NCBI GenBank assembly: GCA_964016885.1
Contig: OZ024741.1
Span: 180,916,001 to 180,980,000, forward strand
Reading direction: 5' to 3'
Origin: Eledone cirrhosa
Lineage: Eukaryota
DNA: 64,000 nt
A program made the translations under genes and the position numbers. Positions within the stretch are counted from its first letter, which is position 1. Every line of letters starts with the position of its first letter. The notes under the pieces are model-generated. The model was not told the origin of the DNA. It saw only the letters and a list, made by a program, of their open reading frames with translations, and did not search any database. Below, one piece after another: positions 36,047 through 64,000 of the stretch.

Positions 36047-36320
36047 CATATAAATCCATATATATAAATACATATAAATACATATATATAAATACATATA
36101 TATATACATATATATATATATACATATATATATATACATATATACATATATAAAGAATTAGTATATCTACCAACATATATATACAGATGCATACCTATGC
36201 TAACAAATATATAGGTTTTGTCTTAGTAACTTTGTGGTTCAATGCAAGGGGATGCAGAACAATTATATGAAAGACGTAAAATAAGAAAATTATAAAAATT
36301 AACTTACTTACTAAAATTTC

Positions 36321-36403
36321 ACTCCAACTAATTAGTTTCTGAAAGGGAATAAACATGGTTTCTGAATGGAAGACATGGAGAATGCCTTTCGTCATCAGGA
36401 AGT
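36321..36403 (-). ncRNA. Type I hammerhead-like motif upstream of a Penelope-like ORF
   Basis: Minus strand reads ACTTC-CTGATGA-CGAAAGG...CCTTTCA-GAAA-CTAATTAG-TT-GGAGT, with palindrome ACTAATTAGT. Confidence 0.68.
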
Positions 36404-36726
36404 CAATTCTCAGCTAAGTTCCCATGCGATGCGTGGACACAGGGAACTTATACAAAAATAATTAGGTGGATGGAAAAAAGCAAGTGTGGACTAAATTCCA
36501 AGATATTGAAAAAAATCACTGCCTACTTGGTCGGTGGCAAATTCAAAAGAATCAATCACGTGACATCGAGGTTAATCAGTGAGGAGTGGGTGTTAAGAAG
36601 ACAGTAGCCGAACTATTACTATGAACTATAGTAGCAGTTTTTGCAAATTTTTGCTTAACAAAATAATTTGGAGATAATTATAAAGAATTAGTATATCTAC
36701 CAACATATATATACAGATGCATACCT

Positions 36727-38467
36727 GGTGACGTTGCCAACCTATTTATGGTATGGTGGGAAAGGAGACTTAAAGATCTCCTTGATGAGATCTCCATAGA
36801 CCTCATCATGTACTCTCGTTACGTAGACGATATCAATATAGAACATCCCCACAAGAGAGCACTAACAAGTTTGATTTAGAACGTAGCACAATGGACAGCA
36901 TCCAGAAGATAGCTAATTCCATACACCAGAGTATAACTGTAACTATCGACTACCCTTCCAAACACCCTAACAATAGAGACTACCTGTATTAGACACGGAA
37001 CTCTGGATTAATACTATAGACGAGAGAGCCCAAATTCTCCACTCACACTATGCTAAACTCATGGCCTCCAAATACCTGATACTCAAAAACTCAGCAATGT
37101 CCAGTAGTGCTAAGTTTAATATTCTGATCGCAGACTTGGTACGAGTGATGAAGAACGTGTCCCGCATGTGCGATCCAACAGAAATGGAAAGACACATCCA
37201 ACACTTCATCAACTGCATGCAGTTCTCTGGCTACACCAAAGAGACAGAATCAGAGTATACGAAGGAGCCACGGAGAAGTATAAGACCCTCATAGAACTGG
37301 ACATGAAATAAATTTTCCCATTATACAGGAGCAAATCATGGAATAGCTTAGATAGGGCTAGACATAAGATAGGGAAAGCCACCTCATCGTACGACAACCA
37401 GAGATACCAGAGTGTCATGTTTGTGGACGCTACCCCTGGTGGGAAATTAGCTAACTAGTGTAGAAAGGCCCTGAGAAAGACCCACTTAAAGATTAAGGTG
37501 GTAGAAAAGCCAGGAACCACCATAAAATCCCTGATCAGCAAAACCTACCCTTTTAAGAAAACCCACTGTACTAATAGGAAATGTATCATATGTAAGGTAA
37601 ACCCCCGGATAAACTGTAAAACTAGAAACGTAGTCTATAGCATAAGATGTACAGAGGGTACTTGCAGAAACATGACAACAACATACATAGGCTAGACAGC
37701 TCGTAGCATAGGTGAAAGTATAGACCAACACTGGGGGGAACTAAAAGGACGAAAAAACGGTTCAGTACTATACGAACATGCCAGACAACAACACGACGGT
37801 AACATAGACAACATAGAAATTAGAATAATATCTAAACATAGAAATGACCCAGCAGATAGGCAAATCAGAGAGGCCAGTGAAATAGAATTTAGAAGGCCAA
37901 GGCTAAACAGAAAAAATGAATGGAATAACAAAAACACCCAAACAAACAACACTGACCTAACAGAAGTATAAATAAATAAAAAAATACATACACAAGCGCA
38001 ATAACAACAAACACATATAAACACACACTAGTAAAGATAGAATACATTAACCAATACACAGTCACCCAATCACGAACACACATCAAACAAAACACTATAC
38101 ACACACGCAAACGCATGCGCAAAGAAAAAAACAACAAAAAAAACAACAAATAAATAAATATATAAACAGACTAAATAAAGATGGCGTAGAAAATACAATG
38201 CAACGGGAGGAAACAATAGCACCACTGACGATGTTGCAGATGTGCAACGAAAGAACTTTGATAAACTATATATATGTGTTTGTGTCTATATTATATCTGT
38301 ATTTTTGACCGTTGGTCAGGCAATGGCAACATTGAGGACCGAATGAATTAAATTAACCGATATAAAAGACACAGAAGCGAAAAGCGAAAACCAACCAAAC
38401 AGTGTGTGTTCTGTTATTAATTCTGGCAATATTACACAAATATGACCCTCCCGAAGTATAACAATAA
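36727..38467 (+). mobile_element. Decayed Penelope-like retroelement (RT C-terminal half + GIY-YIG + 3' region)
   Basis: VANLFMVWWE, YSRYVDDI, LPVLDTELW, CTNRKCIIC and NVVYSIRC...TYIG; multiple stops and frameshifts. Confidence 0.88.
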
Positions 38468-38498
<31 letters not shown>

Positions 38499-38539
38499 CA
38501 TATATACACATATATACATATTTACATATATATATATAC

Positions 38540-38602
<63 letters not shown>

Positions 38603-38605
38603 GAC

Positions 38606-41600
38606 ATATTCACATATATATCGCTATTTCAGAGCATTTATTCCAATTTCTAATTTCTGCCGGACCGGCAACCGCTCTTTCAAACCAGTTCCTGTACACA
38701 GCTAAGTATTCTATAAGTCTCTAGCTGTGTCATTCTCGATAAAAGCACTGGATATGTAGTCCTGATGAATTCTAACAAGAATGAAACGCGTAGATTACTT
38801 CCCTTGCTTTTATCGAGAATCTAATTGTAATACGTGACGTATTCTATTCTATAGCGATTAGGTCTTCAAAATGTTTATTATAAACATACAGAATATTTTC
38901 GAATATTCTATGTCTATATTCACATATATATCGCTATTTCAGAGCATTTATCCCAATTTCTAATTTCTGCCGGACCGGCAACCGCTCTTTCAAACCAGTT
39001 CCTGTACACAGCTAAGTATTCTATAAGTCTCTAGCTGTGTCATTCTCGATAAAAGCACTGGATATGTAGTCCTGATGAATTCTAACAAGAATGAAACGCG
39101 TAGATTACTTCCCTTGCTTTTATCGAGAATCTAATTGTAATACGTGACGTATTCTATTCTATAGCGATTAGGTCTTCAAAATGTTTATTATAAACATACA
39201 GAATATTTTCGAATATTCTATGTCTATATTCACATATATATCGCTATTTCAGAGCATTTATTCCAATTTCTAATTTCTGCCGGACCGGCAACCGCTCTTT
39301 CAAACCAGTTCCTGTACACAGCTAAGTATTCTATAAGTCTCTAGCTGTGTCATTCTCGATAAAAGCACTGGATATGTAGTCCTGATGAATTCTAACAAGA
39401 ATGAAACGCGTAGATTACTTCCCTTGCTTTTATCGAGAATCTAATTGTAATACGTGACGTATTCTATTCTATAGCGATTAGGTCTTCAAAATGTTTATTA
39501 TAAACATACAGAATATTTTCGAATATTCTATGTCTATATTCACATATATATCGCTATTTCAGAGCATTTATTCCAATTTCTAATTTCTGCCGGACCGGCA
39601 ACCGCTCTTTCAAACCAGTTCCTGTACACAGCTAAGTATTCTATAAGTCTCTAGCTGTGTCATTCTCGATAAAAGCACTGGATATGTAGTCCTGATGAAT
39701 TCTAACAAGAATGAAACGCGTAGATTACTTCCCTTGCTTTTATCGAGAATCTAATTGTAATACGTGACGTATTCTATTCTATAGCGATTAGGTCTTCAAA
39801 ATGTTTATTATAAACATACAGAATATTTTCGAATATTCTATGTCTATATTCACATATATATCGCTATTTCAGAGCATTTATTCCAATTTCTAATTTCTGC
39901 CGGACCGGCAACCGCTCTTTCAAACCAGTTCCTGTACACAGCTAAGTATTCTATAAGTCTCTAGCTGTGTCATTCTCGATAAAAGCACTGGATATGTAGT
40001 CCTGATGAATTCTAACAAGAATGAAACGCGTAGATTACTTCCCTTGCTTTTATCGAGAATCTAATTGTAATACGTGACGTATTCTATTCTATAGCGATTA
40101 GGTCTTCAAAATGTTTGAATATTCTATGTCTATATTCACATATATATCGCTATTTCAGAGCATTTATTCCAATTTCTAATTTCTGCCGGACCGGCAACCG
40201 CTCTTTCAAACCAGTTCCTGTACACAGCTAAGTATTCTATAAGTCTCTAGCTGTGTCATTCTCGATAAAAGCACTGGATATGTAGTCCTGATGAATTCTA
40301 ACAAGAATGAAACGCGTAGATTACTTCCCTTGCTTTTATCGAGAATCTAATTGTAATACGTGACGTATTCTATTCTATAGCGATTAGGTCTTCAAAATGT
40401 TTATTATAAACATACAGAATATTTTCGAATATTCTATGTCTATATTCACATATATATCGCTATTTCAGAGCATTTATTCCAATTTCTAATTTCTGCCGGA
40501 CCGGCAACCGCTCTTTCAAACCAGTTCCTGTACACAGCTAAGTATTCTATAAGTCTCTAGCTGTGTCATTCTCGATAAAAGCACTGGATATGTAGTCCTG
40601 ATGAATTCTAACAAGAATGAAACGCGTAGATTACTTCCCTTGCTTTTATCGAGAATCTAATTGTAATACGTGACGTATTCTATTCTATAGCGATTAGGTC
40701 TTCAAAATGTTTATTATAAACATACAGAATATTTTCGAATATTCTATGTCTATATTCACATATATATCGCTATTTCAGAGCATTTATTCCAATTTCTAAT
40801 TTCTGCCGGACCGGCAACCGCTCTTTCAAACCAGTTCCTGTACACAGCTAAGTATTCTATAAGTCTCTAGCTGTGTCATTCTCGATAAAAGCACTGGATA
40901 TGTAGTCCTGATGAATTCTAACAAGAATGAAACGCGTAGATTACTTCCCTTGCTTTTATCGAGAATCTAATTGTAATACGTGACGTATTCTATTCTATAG
41001 CGATTAGGTCTTCAAAATGTTTATTATAAACATACAGAATATTTTCGAATATTCTATGTCTATATTCACATATATATCGCTATTTCAGAGCATTTATTCC
41101 AATTTCTAATTTCTGCCGGACCGGCAACCGCTCTTTCAAACCAGTTCCTGTACACAGCTAAGTATTCTATAAGTCTCTAGCTGTGTCATTCTCGATAAAA
41201 GCACTGGATATGTAGTCCTGATGAATTCTAACAAGAATGAAACGCGTAGATTACTTCCCTTGCTTTTATCGAGAATCTAATTGTAATACGTGACGTATTC
41301 TATTCTATAGCGATTAGGTCTTCAAAATGTTTATTATAAACATACAGAATATTTTCGAATATTCTATGTCTATATTCACATATATATCGCTATTTCAGAG
41401 CATTTATTCCAATTTCTAATTTCTGCCGGACCGGCAACCGCTCTTTCAAACCAGTTCCTGTACACAGCTAAGTATTCTATAAGTCTCTAGCTGTGTCATT
41501 CTCGATAAAAGCACTGGATATGTAGTCCTGATGAATTCTAACAAGAATGAAACGCGTAGATTACTTCCCTTGCTTTTATCGAGAATCTAATTGTAATACG

Positions 41601-41722
41601 TGACGTATTCTATTCTATAGCGATTAGGTCTTCAAAATGTTTATTATAAACATACAGAATATTTTCGAATATTCTATGTCTATATTCACATATATATCGC
41701 TATTTCAGAGCATTTATTCCAA

Positions 41723-41723
<1 letters not shown>
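38606..41723 (+). repeat. Tandem array of 310-bp hammerhead-containing units (10 copies); retrozyme/pLTR-like
   Basis: CTGATGA cores at 38762, 39072, 39382, 39692, 40002, 40288, 40598, 40908, 41218 and 41528. One unit has a 24-bp deletion near 40116. Confidence 0.96.
38756..38798 (+). ncRNA. Minimal type I hammerhead ribozyme (first of 10 identical copies)
   Basis: GTAGTC-CTGATGA-ATTCT(AACA)AGAAT-GAAA-CGCG-TA-GATTAC. Stem I is GTAGTC/GATTAC, stem II is 5 bp, stem III is the palindrome ACGCGT, and the GUA cleavage site follows 38792. Confidence 0.92.
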
Positions 41724-41772
<49 letters not shown>

Positions 41773-42283
41773 CATATATACATATATATATACATATATA
41801 TATATATACATATATAGATATATATACATATATATACACATATATATAGATATATATACATATATATACATATATATACATAAATATATACATATATATA
41901 TACATATATATATACATATATATATATATATATGCATATACATACATGTATATATATACATATACATACATGTATATATATACATATACATACATGTATA
42001 TATATACATATATATACATATATATACATACATATATATACATATATATATATACACATATATATATACACATATATATATATACATATATATATATACA
42101 TATATATATATACATATATATATATACATATATATATATACATATATATATATACATATATATATATACATATATATATATACATATATATATACATATA
42201 TATATATATATACATATATATATACATATATATATACATATATATATACATATATATATACATATATATACATATATATATAC

Positions 42284-42357
<74 letters not shown>

Positions 42358-42394
42358 TATATACATATATATATATAGATATATATATATAGCA

Positions 42395-42785: not shown

Positions 42786-42941
42786 AGTATATATATATAT
42801 ATATATATATACAAAAGTTTTATTTAAAATTGTTGGGTTACAACAAGTAAATATTTTATAACTGATATAAAGCACTCGACAAGTTTTTGGAGTAGATATA
42901 CGATATTAAACAAATGGAAACTATATTTATAAAACCATATT

Positions 42942-43007
42942 TATTTCATTATACATATTTCAGGGATACCATATTAAAAATATGGCATGCCTTCGTCAGA
43001 TAAAATA
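42942..43007 (-). ncRNA. Type I hammerhead, same family as 31224
   Basis: Minus strand reads TATTTTAT-CTGACGA-AGGCATGCCATATT(TTT)AATATGGTATCCCT-GAAA-TATGTA-TA-ATGAAATA. Confidence 0.82.
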
Positions 43008-43274
43008 CAATATATAACCAGTTTTATAAATAATTTTGACGTACCATAAATATAGCGACCATTAATGTATATGTATATATATCTATATATATATATACAT
43101 ATATATATATACATATATATATATACATATATATATATACATATATATATATACATATATATATATACATATATATATATACATATATATATATACATAT
43201 ATATATATATACATATATATATACATATATATACATATATATATATATACATATATATACATATATATATATAC

Positions 43275-43901: not shown

Positions 43902-43964
43902 CATATATATACATATATATACATATATATACATATACATATATATACATATATATATATATAA

Positions 43965-45630
43965 CAAATTTTGAATACGAAACCAGCAACCTTTACGGAC
44001 TTCCGAAGATCCACAAATGTAAAATAATCAACGATGCCTGTAAACAATCCACCTCAGCCTGCGTGAACACACAATACCCCACAGACCTTAAATTAAGAGC
44101 AATCGTAGCGGGCCCACAATGTGAAACACACAGATTGAGCAACTTTATAGACATACTACTGAAACCAATACTGAAACACATACCAAGCCTTGTAAGAGAC
44201 GATCTGCACCTCTTAAACCACCTCCCCAAACATGTCAACAACGACACTATTATTGTGTCTTTCGATGTAGTGAATCTCTACACAACGATCCCACACCAAT
44301 ACGGAATAGAAGCAATATGATTCTGGCTAGAGAAATATCCCAATGAGATACCTGACAGAATAGAAAAAAGCTTCATCACCGAGGGATTAAAATTCATCCT
44401 ACAGAACAACTTTTTTGATTTCGATGGCAATACTTACAAGCAAATATCGGGGACTGCGATGGGCACAAAAGCCGCTCCAACTTATGCCAACTTAGTCATG
44501 GCATACTTAGAAGTCCAGATATATGAACAGTCCAAATCAAAATACGGATTGAACTTCCACAAATATTTATCAGAGAATTGGAAACGCTACTTGGATGATT
44601 GCCTCATTCTTTGGTCCCACACACTCGACCAACTGAAGGATTTCAAAAACTTAATAAACGGCATCAATAAGCACATCCAATTCACAATGGAATACAGCCA
44701 AGATCAACTCCCATTTCTGGACATCTTAATCACAAAAAAAGACACAAATATCGAAACTGACATACACTACAAACCAACAGATTCCAAACAATATCTGCTA
44801 TTCACCTCCAACCATCCAAAGCACACGAAGACGAACATTCCTTTTAACCTAGCAAGAAGAATTTGCACAATTGTCTCCAATTATGAAACGCGAAATAAAA
44901 GACTTCAAGAATTAAAGGAAATTCTACTTGAGAGAGAGTACCCACTATTACTAATAAATAATGGAATAGAAAGGGCTAAAGCAATAAGCATTGATGAATT
45001 ACGGAAACAGAAACAAATTCAAGGTACGTCCAATATTCTACCATATATCTCAACACACAACCCAAGAAATGCGGAAGCTTACAACACTATTCACAATAAC
45101 ATCCCACTACTAAAACAAAACCCAAGAATGAAAAAAGCCCTTGAAACACACAAAATAATCAAAAGCAAAAGACAACCAAAATCACTGAAAACATTACTCA
45201 CCAATGCCAAATTACCTACCCACAACCAAGTATCAAAAAATGTGGTCGCTCTAATTGTGGAACCTGCACTCACCTCATTGAAGGCAACACGTATACATTT
45301 AAATCAGGACAAAATTTTACTGTAAAAAATCACTTCACTTGCTCATCAAAAATCTAATTTATGCCATTAAATGTAAAGGATGCAATGAAGATTATATAGG
45401 ACAAACTAAACTCACACTCAGAAACAGAATGACAGTTCATCGCCAACAATTACGAGATCCAACCACGAGACAGATACCACTAAGTGCACATCTAGACATT
45501 TGCGCAAGTAATAAGACACCCAAATTCCAAGTCTTCCCATTTTACCTTTGCGCTAACAATACAACAGAACAAATGCGAATAAATAGGAAAATATGTTTAT
45601 TCAAAAATATAGACCAACATTAAATAAGGT
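43965..45630 (+). mobile_element. Penelope-like retroelement (RT + C-terminal GIY-YIG), 5'-truncated and disrupted
   Basis: [43 protein letters not shown], Cys linker CGRSNCGTC, and LIYAIKCKGCNEDYIGQT. Stop at 44318 and frameshifts. Confidence 0.95.
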
Positions 45631-47398
45631 TTAATATACATTATGTCAACACCACAATATGACATACACACACACACACATAACACCTTCTACTTTAGAA
45701 ATAAAAACCCGAACTAAATAAACCTTAACATACGTTTGCACTGGCAATACAACAGCAAACACGAAAAAGTCAGGAAAATATGTTCATTCAAAAATATTCC
45801 TACTAAAGGAATCACTTTCCTACACACACACATATACACACACACACAATATATATATATATATCTCTTCATCTTAACATGTTAACCATACTCCCACACA
45901 CATAACACCCATACACACACATAACAACCCCCACACCTACAACACCCTCCCCATTTCTACTAATAGAACCACTTTCCTACACACATATATATATACACAC
46001 ACACAAAATATATATTCTCTCCATCTTAACATACTCGCACACACACACATAACACCCATATACACACACACACAACTCCCTCCCCCATCTCTACTAATAG
46101 AATCATCTTCCAATACACACATACACACACACACACACATACACACACACAAGCACACAAATAAACACATATCTTCAGTCTCAATAGAAAATCTGAACTC
46201 TGACACCTGAACTCTGACAGCTGGCCATATTCACTGAACCAGAACATTTCTCCCAATCCCTTTTCCCTTGACCACTATCTCTCCATTGTCATAACATTCA
46301 CTATAAAGACTACAGAATAGTTTTCCAAATAAGGGCGCAAAAATGTAATGAAAACTTGTTCACGTGACAGCCAAATTTCATTTATAACCAACCAAAAAAA
46401 AGCCTTCGTGAGCCTCCTTTTTTCAAGTAAAAGAAATTCAAACACTCATATATGAAAAAACAACCTGTGACAACCCCCCACTCTCTCTTATTTGAAGAAC
46501 TATTGTAACGCGAACAGGCGCGAAATTTATTATAATTATTGACAAACCAATCAAATTACTTCTCGAAAAACCTGGCTTTCGAGCCACTTTTTCCATATAA
46601 AACAAGTAACATTCAGAGACCAACCAGATGTGAGAAAAACCACAGACCCTCCATCTCAACTCACCTTTTGAAAAGCAGAAGAACTGCGAAACCGGTAAAG
46701 GAACCAAATAAATATATATATTTATAAAAAAATAAGACTTCAGTTGCATTTTCGATTTCATCTCTTTTTCTTTATACTTCCACTCGTGTAGGACACCTCG
46801 GTTATTTTTCATTTTGTAAAAAAAACCTCACTTTCTAATATACATATATATATATATATATATGTAGATAAATCTACCAAGAGTTTACGGTAGTGTCCAA
46901 TCCGTATGAAGAACTCAATGTATTCCGGATATCATGGAAAGAAGAGATGTAATGAAAATCCACTTTCGGTGAAAAATAAACGGTATACAGAGTCAAGATA
47001 AAATATTAAACAAATAATGAATAAACAATTCCTTATATTAAACAAAAAAAGTTCATTATTTAACGATCGTTTCTAGGGTATATATGTGTTATAATTGGTA
47101 TGCATATTCAACAGATCTATGTACAAAATTATACAAAATTATACAAATTATCAAGATTAAATATACATACCTAACACATATATACGCCGTCTTCAGAAAT
47201 AATTATTTCTGAAGACGGCGTATATATGTGTTAGGTATGTATATTTAATCTTGATAATTTGTATAATTTTGTATAATTTTGTACATAGATCTGTTGAATA
47301 TGCATACCAATTATAACACATATATACCCTAGAAACGATCGTTAAATAATGAACTTTTTTTGTTTAATATAAGGAATTGTTTATTCATTATTTGTTTA

Positions 47399-47452
<54 letters not shown>

Positions 47453-47888
47453 CATATACACATATATATATATACATATATATATATATACATATATATA
47501 CATATATATATATATATATACATATATATATACATATATATTGTTATACTTTGGGAGGTTCATGTTGCCAATAAGAAACACACGCACCAGTTGCTTTCAC
47601 TTCAATTTATTATATATTTATAAATTTATAAATTTATAAATTTCTGGTTGGTTGGTTGGCTCCACAATCAGATAGTTGTTTATATATAGTCATTATAAAT
47701 TTATAAATATATAATAAATTGAAGTGAAAGCAACTGGTGCGTGTGTTTCTTATTGGCAACACGACCCTCCCAAGGTATAACAATATCGGTTTCAACACAC
47801 GATTTCAGATAAAGAATCTTGTTAAACAAATTCAGAAACGAAATATATATATATATACATATATGTATATACATATACATATATATAC

Positions 47889-55351: not shown

Positions 55352-55853
55352 ATTAAGTTAAAAGTGTACATCCACATATGTATACTGAAATACTAGTATG
55401 CATATAAATACACACACGTATACATATGTACATGGACACTTTACTCTGGAGAATAGAGGAAAGGTGTTTCCTCGAAAACCAGTATGACTCTAAAAACCGG
55501 TTTGTCTGTGTGTTTACATACGGACTAGCTGAACACTCACAGTAAAGTGTCCAGTGAAAAGCTCGGTACATGTACATATGTATACGTGTGTGTATTTATA
55601 TGCATACTAGTATTTCAGTATACATATGTGGATGTACACTTTTTACTTAATTGTTTAAGCGTCAGTCATACAAAAGTGAGTTACAAACGAAACGAAATTT
55701 AATTTCGTTTCGTTATTTGTTTTTATCGTTTCCGCTGATCCGGTACGTACTCACGCTCTATGCAAATTAGTCTGCCCACTACTAATTTTCATAGAAAAAG
55801 CATATAACGATATGTGCTTTTAGGATTCTCTAGAGAGGCCGGAGGATGGGTAT

Positions 55854-55896
55854 ATATTGCTGATGAGATGTAATAACATCGAAACTAGTCCAATAT
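55854..55896 (+). ncRNA. Minimal type I hammerhead ribozyme
   Basis: ATATTG-CTGATGA-GATGT(AATA)ACATC-GAAA-CTAG-TC-CAATAT, with palindromic ACTAGT stem III and a GUC site. Confidence 0.92.
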
Positions 55897-56318
55897 TCCT
55901 GTCTGGCTCTCTGGAGAATAGAGGAAAGGTGTTTCCTCGAAAACCAGTATGACTCTAAAAACCGGTTTGTCTGTGTGTTTACATACGGACTAGCTGAACA
56001 CTCACAGTAAAGTGTCCAGTGAAAAGCTCGGTACATGTACATATGTATACGTGTGTGTATTTATATGCATACTAGTATTTCAGTATACATATGTGGATGT
56101 ACACTTTTAACTTAATTGTTTAAGCGTCAGTCATACAAAAGTGAGTTACAAACGAAACGAAATTTAATTTCGTTTCGTTATTTGTTTTTATCGTTTCCGC
56201 TGATCCGGTACGTACTCACGCTCTATGCAAATTAGTCTGCCCACTACTAATTTTCATAGAAAAAGCATATAACGATATGTGCTTTTAGGATTCTCTAGAG
56301 AGGCCGGAGGATGGGTAT

Positions 56319-56361
56319 ATATTGCTGATGAGATGTAATAACATCGAAACTAGTCCAATAT
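56319..56361 (+). ncRNA. Minimal type I hammerhead ribozyme, second copy
   Basis: Same sequence as 55854-55896, +465 bp. Confidence 0.92.
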
Positions 56362-56672
56362 TCCTGTCTGGCTCTCTGGAGAATAGAGGAAAGGTGTTTC
56401 CTCGAAAACCAGTATGACTCTAAAAACCGGTTTGTCTGTGTGTTTACATACGGACTAGCTGAACACTCATAGTAAAGTGTCCAGTGAAAAGCTCGGTACA
56501 TGTACATATGTATACGTGTGTGTATTTATATGCATACTAGTATTTCAGTATACATATGTGGATGTACACTTTTAACTTAATTGTTTAAGCGTCAGTCATA
56601 CAAAAGTGAGTTACAAACGAAACGAAATTTAATTTCGTTTCGTTATTTGTTTTTATATATATATATATATAT

Positions 56673-57543: not shown

Positions 57544-57706
57544 ATACTTACCTGGCACAGGGGTTAACCATGATCCGCTAGGTGGTTCTCCCAGAGTGAG
57601 GCTCTTCCATTGCACTGCGGTTGGGTTGACCTTTGCGATCGCCCCAAATGTGGGCGACTCGGGTGCGCTATTTCTAAGTGTGGGGTCTGCGTTCGCGCTC
57701 ACCCCG
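57544..57706 (+). ncRNA. U1: U1 snRNA gene (variant), copy 1
   Basis: Starts ATACTTACCTGG (5' splice-site recognition end). Loop II is ATTGCAC (U1A site), loop III is CAAATGT, and SL IV is GGGGTCTGCGTTCGCGCTCACCCC. 163 nt long, and the helices pair (GCAC/GTGC, AACCAT/GTGGTT, TCGCCC/GGGCGA). Confidence 0.96.
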
Positions 57707-57710
57707 TAAA

Positions 57711-60217: not shown

Positions 60218-60380
60218 ATACTTACCTGGCACAGGGGTTAACCATGATCCGCTAGGTGGTTCTCCCAGAGTGAGGCTCTTCCATTGCACTGCGGTTGGGT
60301 TGACCTTTGCGATCGCCCCAAATGTGGGCGACTCGGGTGCGCTATTTCTAAGTGTGGGGTCTGCGTTCGCGCTCACCCCG
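60218..60380 (+). ncRNA. U1: U1 snRNA gene (variant), copy 2
   Basis: Same sequence as copy 1, 2674 bp downstream. Confidence 0.96.
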
Positions 60381-61589
60381 TAAAATAATCAAAAAGACAG
60401 ACTTTTTACCATTATTAAATTATAATTATCTTTCTCTATTCTTTCACACAATCAACTTTACACATTCTCTCATACAACCTAACTTTTCAGATTTATTTCT
60501 TTTACAAACTCCCTCATACAACCTTTTCCTATTCATGCAATCCTCACCTAACTCTTCTCTGCACTCTCAACTCTTGCCCACGCCGGCATATCATACACTA
60601 GCACACCATTTCACCGGCTCTTGCCTACCTCTTCCAACACACATGCATCGTCCCTTCTATTTTCAATTAACAACAACTACCTTCATTCTATTTCAATTCA
60701 GCCGCAATCACTCTTACCTTTCACACTTCTCTTCCAACATACACCCAACCGTCTATCGTGTATCTGAGTAATTAACCTCATAGAAACAACACTTAAATTT
60801 ACCTCCTCTCACACATAACCTACATTATATGGAGAAAGATATCTGCCATTTTCACTCTTAGTATATCTTTCATCATACCACTGGCCAGCTAAATCATAAC
60901 TTCCATCTTCCGACGGAGAAGACGCTCCTATCAGAAGAAATCATCAGGCTAGATCCAGAAACGATCTTATCTTATTTGTCGTCTAACCTTCGGTCTCACG
61001 CCAGTTGGATTTACCCGTATTATCTCTCTAGTCATTCTTTTCTTATACATTCTAAACACACCTTCCTACTACCAGAGTGGTGATCTTCCGATTCAGAAAA
61101 TTCGCTGCTCTACCTGTACCCACTCCCTCATCTCCAAGCTACACATCCAATCGACCAAGCTTATTCCAAACGCTTGTAAATCTACATTTACAAATCAATA
61201 CAACAAACAATTTACTTCAGCGAACACACACAGACATATATTACTAGCAAATCACTTATATATGGAACTTGTGAGCATGTGATATCTCTAAAAGGTCGCA
61301 TCTTGAACTCAATCAAACAATCTAGCCTATACTAATATGGAAAGAGGACGTGCAATGATGATATGGATTTTTAGGCTTTTCTTAAGCACAGAGATTGTTT
61401 TAGTGTCACTTGCATTTAAAATTTAATTATCTTTATTATCCACTTCTCAGTAGTGAGAACTTGATAAATATTTATTACAACAGTTAAACCAACTTCATTA
61501 AAGTATTATGTTGCTGTAGGTGTGTGTATAACATGCAACTAGATAAACTCTGATATAGTAGATAGATTCTTGTGAAATATCTATATACA

Positions 61590-62891: not shown

Positions 62892-63054
62892 ATACTTACC
62901 TGGCACAGGGGTTAACCATGATCCGCTAGGTGGTTCTCCCAGAGTGAGGCTCTTCCATTGCACTGCGGTTGGGTTGACCTTTGCGATCGCCCCAAATGTG
63001 GGCGACTCGGGTGCGCTATTTCTAAGTGTGGGGTCTGCGTTCGCGCTCACCCCG
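62892..63054 (+). ncRNA. U1: U1 snRNA gene (variant), copy 3
   Basis: Same sequence as copy 1, a further 2674 bp downstream. Confidence 0.96.
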
Positions 63055-64000
63055 TAAAATAATCAAAAAGACAGACTTTTTACCATTATTAAATTATAAT
63101 TATCTTTCTCTATTCTTTCACACAATCAACTTTACACATTCTCTCATACAACCTAACTTTTCAGATTTATTTCTTTTACAAACTCCCTCATACAACCTTT
63201 TCCTATTCATGCAATCCTCACCTAACTCTTCTCTGCACTCTCAACTCTTGCCCACGCCGGCATATCATATACTAGCACACCATTTCACCGGCTCTTGCCT
63301 ACCTCTTCCAACACACATGCATCGTCCCTTCTATTTTCAATTAACAACAACTACCTTCATTCTATTTCAATTCAGCCGCAATCACTCTTACCTTTCACAC
63401 TTCTCTTCCAACATACACCCAACCGTCTATCGTGTATCTGAGTAATTAACCTCATAGAAACAACACTTAAATTTACCTCCTCTCACACATAACCTACATT
63501 ATATGGAGAAAGATATCTGCCATTTTCACTCTTAGTATATCTTTCATCATACCACTGGCCAGCTAAATCATAACTTCCATCTTCCGACGGAGAAGACGCT
63601 CCTATCAGAAGAAATCATCAGGCTAGATCCAGAAACGATCTTATCTTATTTGTCGTCTAACCTTCGGTCTCACGCCAGTTGGATTTACCCGTATTATCTC
63701 TCTAGTCATTCTTTTCTTATACATTCTAAACACACCTTCCTACTACCAGAGTGGTGATCTTCCGATTCAGAAAATTCGCTGCTCTACCTGTACCCACTCC
63801 CTCATCTCCAAGCTACACATCCAATCGACCAAGCTTATTCCAAACGCTTGTAAATCTACATTTACAAATCAATACAACAAACAATTTACTTCAGCGAACA
63901 CACACAGACATATATTACTAGCAAATCACTTATATATGGAACTTGTGAGCATGTGATATCTCTAAAAGGTCGCATCTTGAACTCAATCAAACAATCTAGC

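What the first reader, a model, noticed from the sequence alone, without database searches (positions are those of the whole stretch)
38606..41723. Ten-copy 310-nt hammerhead ribozyme array: candidate retrozyme / circular RNA element
Seen: each non-coding 310-bp unit has an exact hammerhead core (CUGAUGA...GAAA, GUA site), a 6-bp stem I extended by a perfect 16-bp distal helix (ATTCTCGATAAAAGCA/TGCTTTTATCGAGAAT), and a stem III reduced to the palindrome ACGCGU. Units are almost identical and sit between (TA)n tracts. Known: minimal type I hammerheads with palindromic stem III occur in Penelope pLTRs and in metazoan non-LTR retrozymes, which cleave as dimers and yield monomeric circRNAs. Inference: read-through transcripts would self-process into 310-nt monomers or circles mobilised by a Penelope RT. 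I do not know of this family being described.
Basis: partly seen in the sequence, partly recalled or inferred. Interest (0 to 1): 0.92.

Follow-up and report, generated by a model that had tools for sequence, protein, structure and literature searches.

The report
Young mobile self-cutting RNA repeat
This is one of more than a thousand recent insertions of a 310-base non-coding repeat that carries a self-cutting RNA motif; it belongs to a known class of animal mobile elements, but the ends of its insertions show unusually clearly which kind of enzyme copies it into the genome.

Summary
Confirmed: ten head-to-tail units (nine of 310 nt, one of 286), each with an intact type I hammerhead whose helix III is the palindrome ACGCGU; predicted cut after 38792. 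The array is one member of a young family in G000 (at least 17,191 units; 1,100 arrays with the same exact 3' end). New here is the insertion anatomy: 63 of 77 complete arrays consist of two 5'-truncated multimer arms in opposite orientation, inside (TA)n, ending at two fixed positions of the unit about 26 nt apart. That is the Penelope-like-element (PLE) 'tail' signature of internal RT initiation at two sites. Arrays are nearly clonal (0.30 differences within, 2.84 between; 33 haplotypes in 66 arrays), and array-fixed changes keep the ribozyme's pairing (5 of 5) while minor changes break it (11 of 11). Best reading: a non-LTR retrozyme whose ribozyme-cut monomer, probably a circle, is copied round and round by a borrowed PLE RT/endonuclease. 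Not shown: transcription, cleavage, a circle, or the helper family; no PLE terminal repeat homologous to the unit was found. Known class, new family, unusually good test material.

The parts
38606..41723 (+). Direct arm: 10.1 head-to-tail units (unit starts 38606, 38916, 39226, 39536, 39846, 40132, 40442, 40752, 41062, 41372, partial 41682); phase 1 = 38606
38756..38798 (+). Type I hammerhead of unit 1: helix I 38756-38761/38793-38798, CUGAUGA 38762-38768, helix II 38769-38782, GAAA 38783-38786, palindrome ACGCGU 38786-38791, predicted cut after A 38792; repeated with A17 at 39102, 39412, 39722, 40032, 40318, 40628, 40938, 41248, 41558
   Evidence: cut site inferred from the hammerhead consensus
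38732..38820 (+). 16-bp distal helix (38732-38747 with 38805-38820) plus 3-bp helix and bulge extending helix I; repeated in every unit
   Evidence: fold; covariation with the sister family
41698..41723 (+). 26-nt 'tail' (unit phase 17-42); its end is the outer RT start site (phase 40-42, ambiguous by AT microhomology)
   Evidence: tail concept PMC8557442, PMC11167929
41689..41697 (+). Internal CATATATAT run (phase 8-16 of every unit): inner RT start site, where inverted arms end genome-wide
38598..38608 (-). Probable 11-nt remnant of an inverted arm (phases 304-310 and 1-4), same outer end as in L039; only three or four letters are informative beyond TA, so probable, not proven
   Evidence: inference
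40116..40117 (+). Junction of the 24-nt deletion in unit 5 (phases 272-295 missing)
38464..38601 (.). Left (TA)n target tract
41724..42391 (.). Right (TA)n target tract

Best explanation
A young non-autonomous retroelement of the non-LTR retrozyme class, moved by the RT/GIY-YIG endonuclease of a Penelope-like element. Steps: (1) an array is transcribed as a multimer (inferred; promoter unknown); (2) two hammerheads pair through ACGCGU and cut out a 310-nt monomer (structure and selection shown, cleavage inferred); (3) a host ligase closes it (inferred from PMC7229834); (4) a PLE protein nicks both strands of a (TA)n tract and starts reverse transcription at two internal sites of the RNA, phase about 16 and about 42 (fixed ends, inversion and target shown; enzyme inferred from PMC11167929 and from identical anatomy of ORF-bearing PLEs in this genome); (5) each RT runs round the template for 0.2 to 20 laps and the two cDNAs are joined, giving two opposed arms of one haplotype (arm lengths and clonality shown; circular template inferred). 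Confidence 0.9 for 'retrozyme moved by PLE machinery', 0.7 for the whole path through a monomeric circle.
For: Family size: 8,288+8,903 exact 29-mer hits; 1,100 exact phase-42 ends against 78 at phase 49; 624 inner ends on one strand. Anatomy: 63 of 77 complete arrays two-armed, 11 inner-only, 3 outer-only; TA on both sides in 63 of 77; median 7.6, maximum 31.7 units. Free of selection bias: 8 of 9 arrays picked by the ribozyme core alone are two-armed; 33 of 34 complete arrays picked by the outer end have an inverted arm ending at phase 2-16. Target duplications with non-TA letters in L034 (12 nt) and L058 (44 nt), weaker in about five more of 48 examined. Clonality: 504 units in 66 arrays, 0.30 differences within, 2.84 between, 33 haplotypes; same modal haplotype in both arms in 35 of 41 (chance of identity between arrays 8%); a private variant fixed in both arms in 11 of 41. 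Selection: in helices and core, array-fixed substitutions keep pairing 5 of 5, minor ones break it 11 of 11, Fisher p 2.3e-4; the only core position that varies between arrays is N7 (14 of 66). With 14 sister-family copies: 92.6% of cells paired, 11 of 19 pairs with changes on both sides, slid controls 36-51%, C3-G8 read as U-A in 6 of 15. Dimer fold with intermolecular ACGCGU -71.5 against 2 x -31.8 kcal/mol. Only 2 of 146 5' ends lie near the cut site (5.2 expected), so linear cut monomers are not the template. ORF-bearing PLEs of two families show the same two-arm, tail, TA anatomy. One chimeric insertion joins a sister-family arm to a PLE arm (L105).
Against: No RNA evidence of any kind. 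The helper is not identified: no homology between the unit and the terminal repeats of the PLE families compared, their tails are longer (about 60 and 75 nt against 26), and their copies are more diverged (85-91% aa to P0001; 77-97% DNA) than this family. Most arrays have U.U instead of A-U at the base of helix II (A form modal in 14 of 66; 78% T in run X1), and none has the usual G10.1-C11.1, so cleavage may be slow. Hammerhead mutants did not affect insertion by the anole PLE in vitro (PMC11167929), and 8 of 9 Xenopus retrozyme dimers did not cleave in vitro (10.64898/2026.07.22.740005). Six of 41 two-arm arrays differ between arms by one site, and L053, L065, L070 and L077 carry recurring minor variants, which one clean circle does not explain. 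5' ends are not quite uniform (chi-square p 0.03, excess at phase 187-248). Outer ends spread over phase 31-49, and 37 of the 81 arrays were picked by the phase-42 end. Both start sites have AT microhomology to the target, unlike the non-homologous starts reported for the anole PLE.
Confidence: 0.7

Rival explanations
1. Same element and same PLE machinery, but the template is an uncut linear multimer; the hammerhead acts at another step (or late), and no circle is needed.
For: Unprocessed RNA was the main substrate for the anole PLE (PMC11167929); weak helix II and III; recurring minor variants inside L053, L065, L070, L077; a homogeneous parent array also gives homogeneous daughters.
Against: 33 haplotypes in 66 arrays, each nearly pure, need a single-unit bottleneck for a new mutation to fill a whole array and both arms; selection on pairing and core; arms up to 20 units and above 22 units.
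Confidence: 0.17
2. The unit is the terminal repeat (pLTR) of an autonomous PLE that I did not find, and the arrays are its tandem, ORF-less by-products.
For: Anatomy is that of PLE insertions; 24 of 57 Xenopus retrozyme families match known elements, nearly all PLE ends (10.64898/2026.07.22.740005); pattern searches list only the first 100 places.
Against: None of 81 arrays and none of 30 sister-family loci has an ORF running into the unit as its terminal repeat; the two direct junctions with PLE sequence (L060, L105) are to families with their own, different terminal repeats; the ribozyme is not of the minimal PLE type (PMC4209133).
Confidence: 0.08
3. A satellite DNA spread at the DNA level (unequal exchange, extrachromosomal DNA circles); the hammerhead is a passenger.
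For: Tandem, nearly identical units; recurring minor variants suggest some local exchange after insertion; such a route is proposed for local amplification in the 2026 preprint.
Against: Two fixed ends in the unit, free 5' ends, opposed arms, TA targeting and target duplications; selection on RNA pairing.
Confidence: 0.04
4. Assembly artefact (collapsed or fold-back reads).
For: Inverted junctions and near-identical units can arise from fold-back reads.
Against: Arms differ in length and phase, flanks differ on the two sides, target duplications exist; run X1 holds the unit in 750 contigs with the same two common variants.
Confidence: 0.01

Closest known systems
Metazoan non-LTR retrozymes (coral, mussel, axolotl; PMC7229834, PMC7761336)
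   Same: Tandem 150-450-nt units, low GC, no ORF, type I hammerhead in each unit; single-pair helix III with palindromic tetraloop like axolotl HHR_Amex1 (needs a dimer); U.U at the base of helix II like HHR_Amex2; long target duplications.
   Different: In the parts read, no fixed ends, opposed arms, tail or TA targeting are described; the 2020 review says animal retrozymes show no conserved motif pointing to their helper. Circles are shown there, not here.
Vertebrate non-LTR retrozymes as PLE derivatives (bioRxiv 10.64898/2026.07.22.740005)
   Same: Proposes PLE machinery as helper; co-occurrence with PLEs.
   Different: Its evidence is co-distribution and homology to pLTRs; here there is no detectable pLTR homology, and the evidence is insertion anatomy and within-array clonality. 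No mollusc-type or other non-insect, non-coral invertebrate genome in its set of 35.
Penelope-like elements, C-terminal GIY-YIG clades (PMC8557442; anole Poseidon PAc, PMC11167929)
   Same: 5' truncation, partial tandems, inverted 5' copy, tail at one end only, (TA)n or AT-rich targets, two adjacent internal RT start sites.
   Different: No ORF; whole-unit multimers up to 30 copies; tail 26 nt (up to 35 when the inner end is at phase 7) against 30-40; canonical rather than minimal hammerhead; AT microhomology at both start sites.
Non-autonomous Chlamys elements such as MRC1 (PMC8557442)
   Same: ORF-less PLE passengers with multicopy head-to-tail insertions.
   Different: Green algae; similar to their helpers at the 3' end; the N-terminal-EN clades lack canonical hammerheads.
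Rfam Hammerhead_HH9 (RF02275)
   Same: Full-length alignment, core, helices I and II, bulge in helix I, six-base loop 2.
   Different: 23 bits, far below the cut-off of 52; helix III reduced.

Membership tests
Non-LTR retrozyme | Tandem units of about 150-450 nt, GC under 50%, no ORF | tested here: met
Non-LTR retrozyme | Complete type I hammerhead in at least two consecutive units | tested here: met
   10 of 10 units; fold
Non-LTR retrozyme | Dispersed arrays with signs of retrotransposition (target duplication, truncation) | tested here: met
Non-LTR retrozyme | Not the terminal repeat of an ORF-bearing element; no LTR, PBS or PPT | tested here: met
   0 of 81 arrays attached to an ORF as its terminal repeat; sample of well over 1,000 arrays; PBS and PPT not searched separately
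Non-LTR retrozyme | Self-cleavage in vitro (monomer or dimer) | not testable with these tools
   indirect only: selection, covariation, dimer fold
Non-LTR retrozyme | Expressed as linear and circular monomeric RNA | tested here: inconclusive
   contigs cannot tell tandem DNA from a circle
PLE-mobilised element | Inverted 5'-truncated copy plus tail at one end | tested here: met
   63 of 77 complete arrays; 8 of 9 among those picked without regard to ends
PLE-mobilised element | (TA)n or AT-rich target | tested here: met
   63 of 77 with TA on both sides
PLE-mobilised element | Sequence similarity to the pLTR or 3' end of a helper PLE | tested here: not met
   no hit against PLE loci L143-L164 (only a sister-family copy in L157), 35 loci of a second family, or window and array flanks; other PLE families not covered
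Autonomous PLE | RT and GIY-YIG ORF between terminal repeats | tested here: not met
   the PLE remnants at 36150-38460 and 43960-45650 have their own ends and are separated by TA tracts
Minimal PLE hammerhead (PMC4209133) | Helix II 7-8 bp, helix I 4-5 bp, unpaired base between 9 and 10.1, no tertiary loops | tested here: not met
   helix I 6 bp with bulge and extension, helix II 4-5 bp; the U.U form leaves one unpaired base on each side
Rfam hammerhead families | Score at or above gathering threshold | tested here: not met

The most novel reading that the evidence does not exclude
Each array is the direct record of a Penelope-type RT pair copying one small ribozyme-made RNA circle round and round from two internal start sites set a fixed distance apart, and the circle is an independent, viroid-like passenger with no sequence debt to the helper's terminal repeat. 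The distance appears to be measured rather than read: this family has a 6-nt insertion in the tail relative to its sister family, yet both end 26 nt past the internal TA run. At the far edge, the identical 310-nt cycle in runs labelled with three other organisms would mean very recent spread between hosts (that part alone: about 0.05).
Probability: 0.35. Interest if true: 0.8.

Novelty: new member of a known kind. Interest (0 to 1): 0.55.

Why it matters
Which enzyme moves animal retrozymes, and whether the RNA circle is the template, are stated as open in PMC7761336 and in the 2026 preprint. This family is young, abundant (about 5.3 Mb, 0.18% of G000) and keeps its junctions intact, so it gives exact predictions: two RT start positions on a 310-nt RNA, a (TA)n target, one haplotype per insertion, and a dimer-dependent cut. 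It also links retrozyme biology to the in vitro PLE mechanism published in 2024. A natural rolling-circle, site-preferring RNA-to-DNA writer that accepts a small non-coding circle would be of interest as a tool. The element class itself is not new.

Tried and rejected
DNA search of G000 with the whole unit found nothing, not even the window (very common words are skipped), so exact patterns were used. Rfam gathering search: no hammerhead. Sequencing runs: no RNA holder listed. Earlier findings of the scan: none by place, sequence or words. The PLE remnant just upstream (36150-38460) as owner of the array: rejected; it ends in its own terminal repeat and hammerhead-like motif before the TA tract, has no similarity to the unit, and the same family sits next to other arrays across TA tracts, which shared targeting explains. 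Search for the helper: family of P0001 (35,408 candidates, 150 scored, longest open frame 1,257 aa in L162) and the family of window 42820-43060 (1,582 exact hits, broken frames in the 6 loci read) show the same anatomy but no homology to the unit; a short ATATCG near the inner start of three families is too weak to count. Pfam finds nothing for the L162 frame and GIY-YIG for P0001; clade names were not tested by a tree. Linear cut monomers as template: rejected (2 of 146 5' ends near the cut). Dimeric circles: no alternating unit pattern in the 17 mixed arrays listed. One search was distorted by the internal inverted repeat and was replaced. Helix I and III were left out because the alignment put the two families out of register there. 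No source was found for activity of the U3-A8 core; PMC5785218 is not held. Promoter not investigated.

Full report
Observation. The array is as described: period 310, 10.1 copies, 38606-41723, ten hammerhead cores, one unit shortened by 24 nt and one substitution in unit 2. Positions below are given as unit phase, 38606 = phase 1. The ribozyme has helix I (151-156 with 188-193), CUGAUGA (157-163), helix II (164-177), GAAA, ACGCGU and a GUA triplet ending at phase 187 (window 38792). Helix I continues through a bulge, three pairs and a 16-bp helix; these pairs dominate the fold of the circular unit. Two copies fold together through ACGCGU with a gain of about 8 kcal/mol over two monomers. Rfam's best match is HH9, below its cut-off. 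By the definitions in PMC4209133 (passages) this is the canonical metazoan type I form with a weak palindromic helix III, not the minimal PLE form.

Family. The window lies in G000, a 3.0-Gb animal genome (the group was not established). The exact 43-nt core occurs 2,528 times, control 0; a 29-mer elsewhere in the unit 17,191 times. A pattern for an array ending at phase 42 occurs 1,100 times (a few may be internal variants), one for phase 49 only 78 times, and one for an end at the unit's own TA run 624 times on one strand (the other strand is double-counted). All are lower bounds. Run X1 holds the unit in 750 contigs with the two commonest variants at 78% and 31%.

Anatomy. I mapped 81 arrays, all from contig C1 except the window: 9 picked by the ribozyme core, 37 by the phase-42 end, 3 exceptions, 31 by the inner end and chosen because they were absent from the list, and the window. 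Four were cut by gaps or by the stretch fetched and were dropped. Of 77, 63 have two arms in opposite orientation, 11 only the inner-ended arm and 3 (the window among them) only the outer-ended arm; 63 have TA on both sides. Inner ends lie at phase 2-16, outer ends at 31-49 with the mode at 42; the inner 5' ends are free. Unbiased subsets agree: 8 of 9 core-picked arrays are two-armed, and 33 of 34 complete outer-picked arrays have an inverted arm ending at phase 2-16. Where the target is not pure TA a duplication is visible (L034, L058). PMC8557442 (passages) describes this as typical of PLEs: truncated tandems, an inverted 5' copy, a 30-40-bp tail at one end, (TA)n targets. PMC11167929 (parts 1-2 of 4) shows in vitro that a PLE protein cuts both strands of AT-rich DNA and starts RT at two adjacent internal RNA sites, the tail being the sequence between them. 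ORF-bearing PLEs of two families in G000 have the same anatomy with tails of about 60 and 75 nt. The window's array probably keeps an 11-nt stub of the inverted arm (38598-38608).

Template. Among 504 full units in 66 arrays, units differ by 0.30 sites within an array and modal units by 2.84 between arrays; there are 33 haplotypes. The two arms share the modal haplotype in 35 of 41 cases, and 11 of 41 carry a variant seen in no other sampled array in every unit of both arms. A new mutation can fill a whole array only through a single-unit bottleneck followed by re-multiplication. The 5' ends avoid the cut site (2 of 146, 5.2 expected), so RT does not stop at a ribozyme-made 5' end. A circle copied for several laps explains all three facts. 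Against this: six arrays differ between arms by one site, four carry recurring minor variants, and the 5' ends are not quite uniform (p 0.03).

Selection on the ribozyme. In arrays of three or more units, substitutions fixed in an array that fall in helices or invariant core keep pairing (5 of 5); minor, presumably post-insertion ones break it (11 of 11); p 2.3e-4 (indels and loop sites left out, helix II base pair 164-177 counted as loop). Between arrays the core varies only at N7. A sister family (4,777 hits; about 69% identical to the unit in L157) keeps the layout with other helix sequences: 11 of 19 pairs change on both sides, including C3-G8 to U-A in 6 of 15 sequences (14 of 18 sister sequences were used). 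The C3-G8 pair is supported by the rescue cited in PMC11167929; that U3-A8 is active is recalled, not found in print. The window carries a minority form with A-U at the base of helix II; most arrays have U.U.

Tail length. The sister family lacks six bases that this family has in the tail. Of 20 sister copies scored as ending, 16 end 4-7 bases after CCAAT and none at it, whereas this family ends at CCAAT 1,100 times and at the homologous later site 78 times. Both give 26 nt from the internal TA run, which suggests a measured distance; ends at phase 44 and 47 (14 of the sampled arrays) show it is loose.

Helper. Not identified. No similarity was found between the unit and the terminal repeats compared. 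One insertion, L105, joins an inverted sister-family arm through a fold-back piece and a short microhomology to the GIY-YIG frame of the PLE family that also lies upstream of the window's array; both ends carry tails, so a later deletion between two insertions is not excluded. L060 joins this family directly to the terminal repeat of a second PLE family.

Literature. Non-LTR retrozymes are described, with circles shown in coral, mussel and axolotl (PMC7229834: passages and sections 14 and 17). PMC7761336 (passages) states that no motif points to their helper. The preprint 10.64898/2026.07.22.740005 (parts 1-3 of 5) argues for PLE origin from co-occurrence and pLTR homology and found cleavage in 1 of 9 dimers. 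PMC6962438 (passages) only counts hammerhead hits in a squid. Searches showed no paper describing this family or opposed arms and tails in retrozymes; the library lacks most subscription journals, repeat databases were not available, and I saw no supplements (those of PMC7229834 and of the preprint may show insertion ends).

Verdict. A real, young non-LTR retrozyme family, new member of a known kind. Interest 0.55: the class is known, but the junctions make the helper and circle questions directly testable.

Noticed in passing
window 55352-56656: A second, unrelated hammerhead tandem family (period 465, cores at 55860 and 56325, palindrome ACUAGU, GUC site) with an inverted 5' piece and a tail of about 70 nt before TA; 709+704 exact hits in G000, many in opposed arms.
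   Followed up: partly
L059:4373-4724, L079:7018-7501, L081-L110: Older sister family of the 310-nt unit, mostly monomers and short arms, with several ribozyme forms (longer palindromic helix III; U3-A8 core in some).
   Followed up: partly
L105:330-1845 (G000:C1:22609045-22612064): Chimeric insertion: sister-family arm joined to a PLE GIY-YIG frame and terminal repeat.
   Followed up: partly
runs X4, X5, X6: Three runs labelled with three other organisms each hold the unit as one 340-letter contig that closes on itself (depth 26, 34, 12); X4 and X5 match the window's minority haplotype exactly, X6 has the common one; no flanks. Tandem DNA and a circle look the same here; X4 may be related to this DNA's source. 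Unexplained.
   Followed up: no
window 36150-38460: Broken C-terminal GIY-YIG PLE with a CX4CxxC-type linker, ending at its inner site before the TA tract; very large family in G000, longest open frame seen 1,257 aa (L162).
   Followed up: partly
window 43960-45650: Broken PLE of another family (RT and GIY-YIG, 27% identical to the L162 frame over 172 aa).
   Followed up: no
window 20946(-)/21088(+), 31126(-)/31232(+), 42999(-): Inverted pairs of PLE-type terminal repeats with long-helix-II hammerhead motifs inside TA tracts; the 42999 family belongs to short PLEs with an RDD RT motif, Hydra-like by recall and PMC8557442 passages, not tested by tree.
   Followed up: partly
window 57544-57707, 60218-60381, 62892-63055: Three U1 snRNA genes at 2,674-nt spacing, a tandem U1 array.
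   Followed up: no
L114:1399-1670: A 272-nt GC-richer foreign piece captured between the two arms of one array; source unknown.
   Followed up: partly
window 46860-47760: Two perfect fold-back pairs (around 47190-47220 and 47650) of PLE terminal sequence between TA tracts.
   Followed up: no
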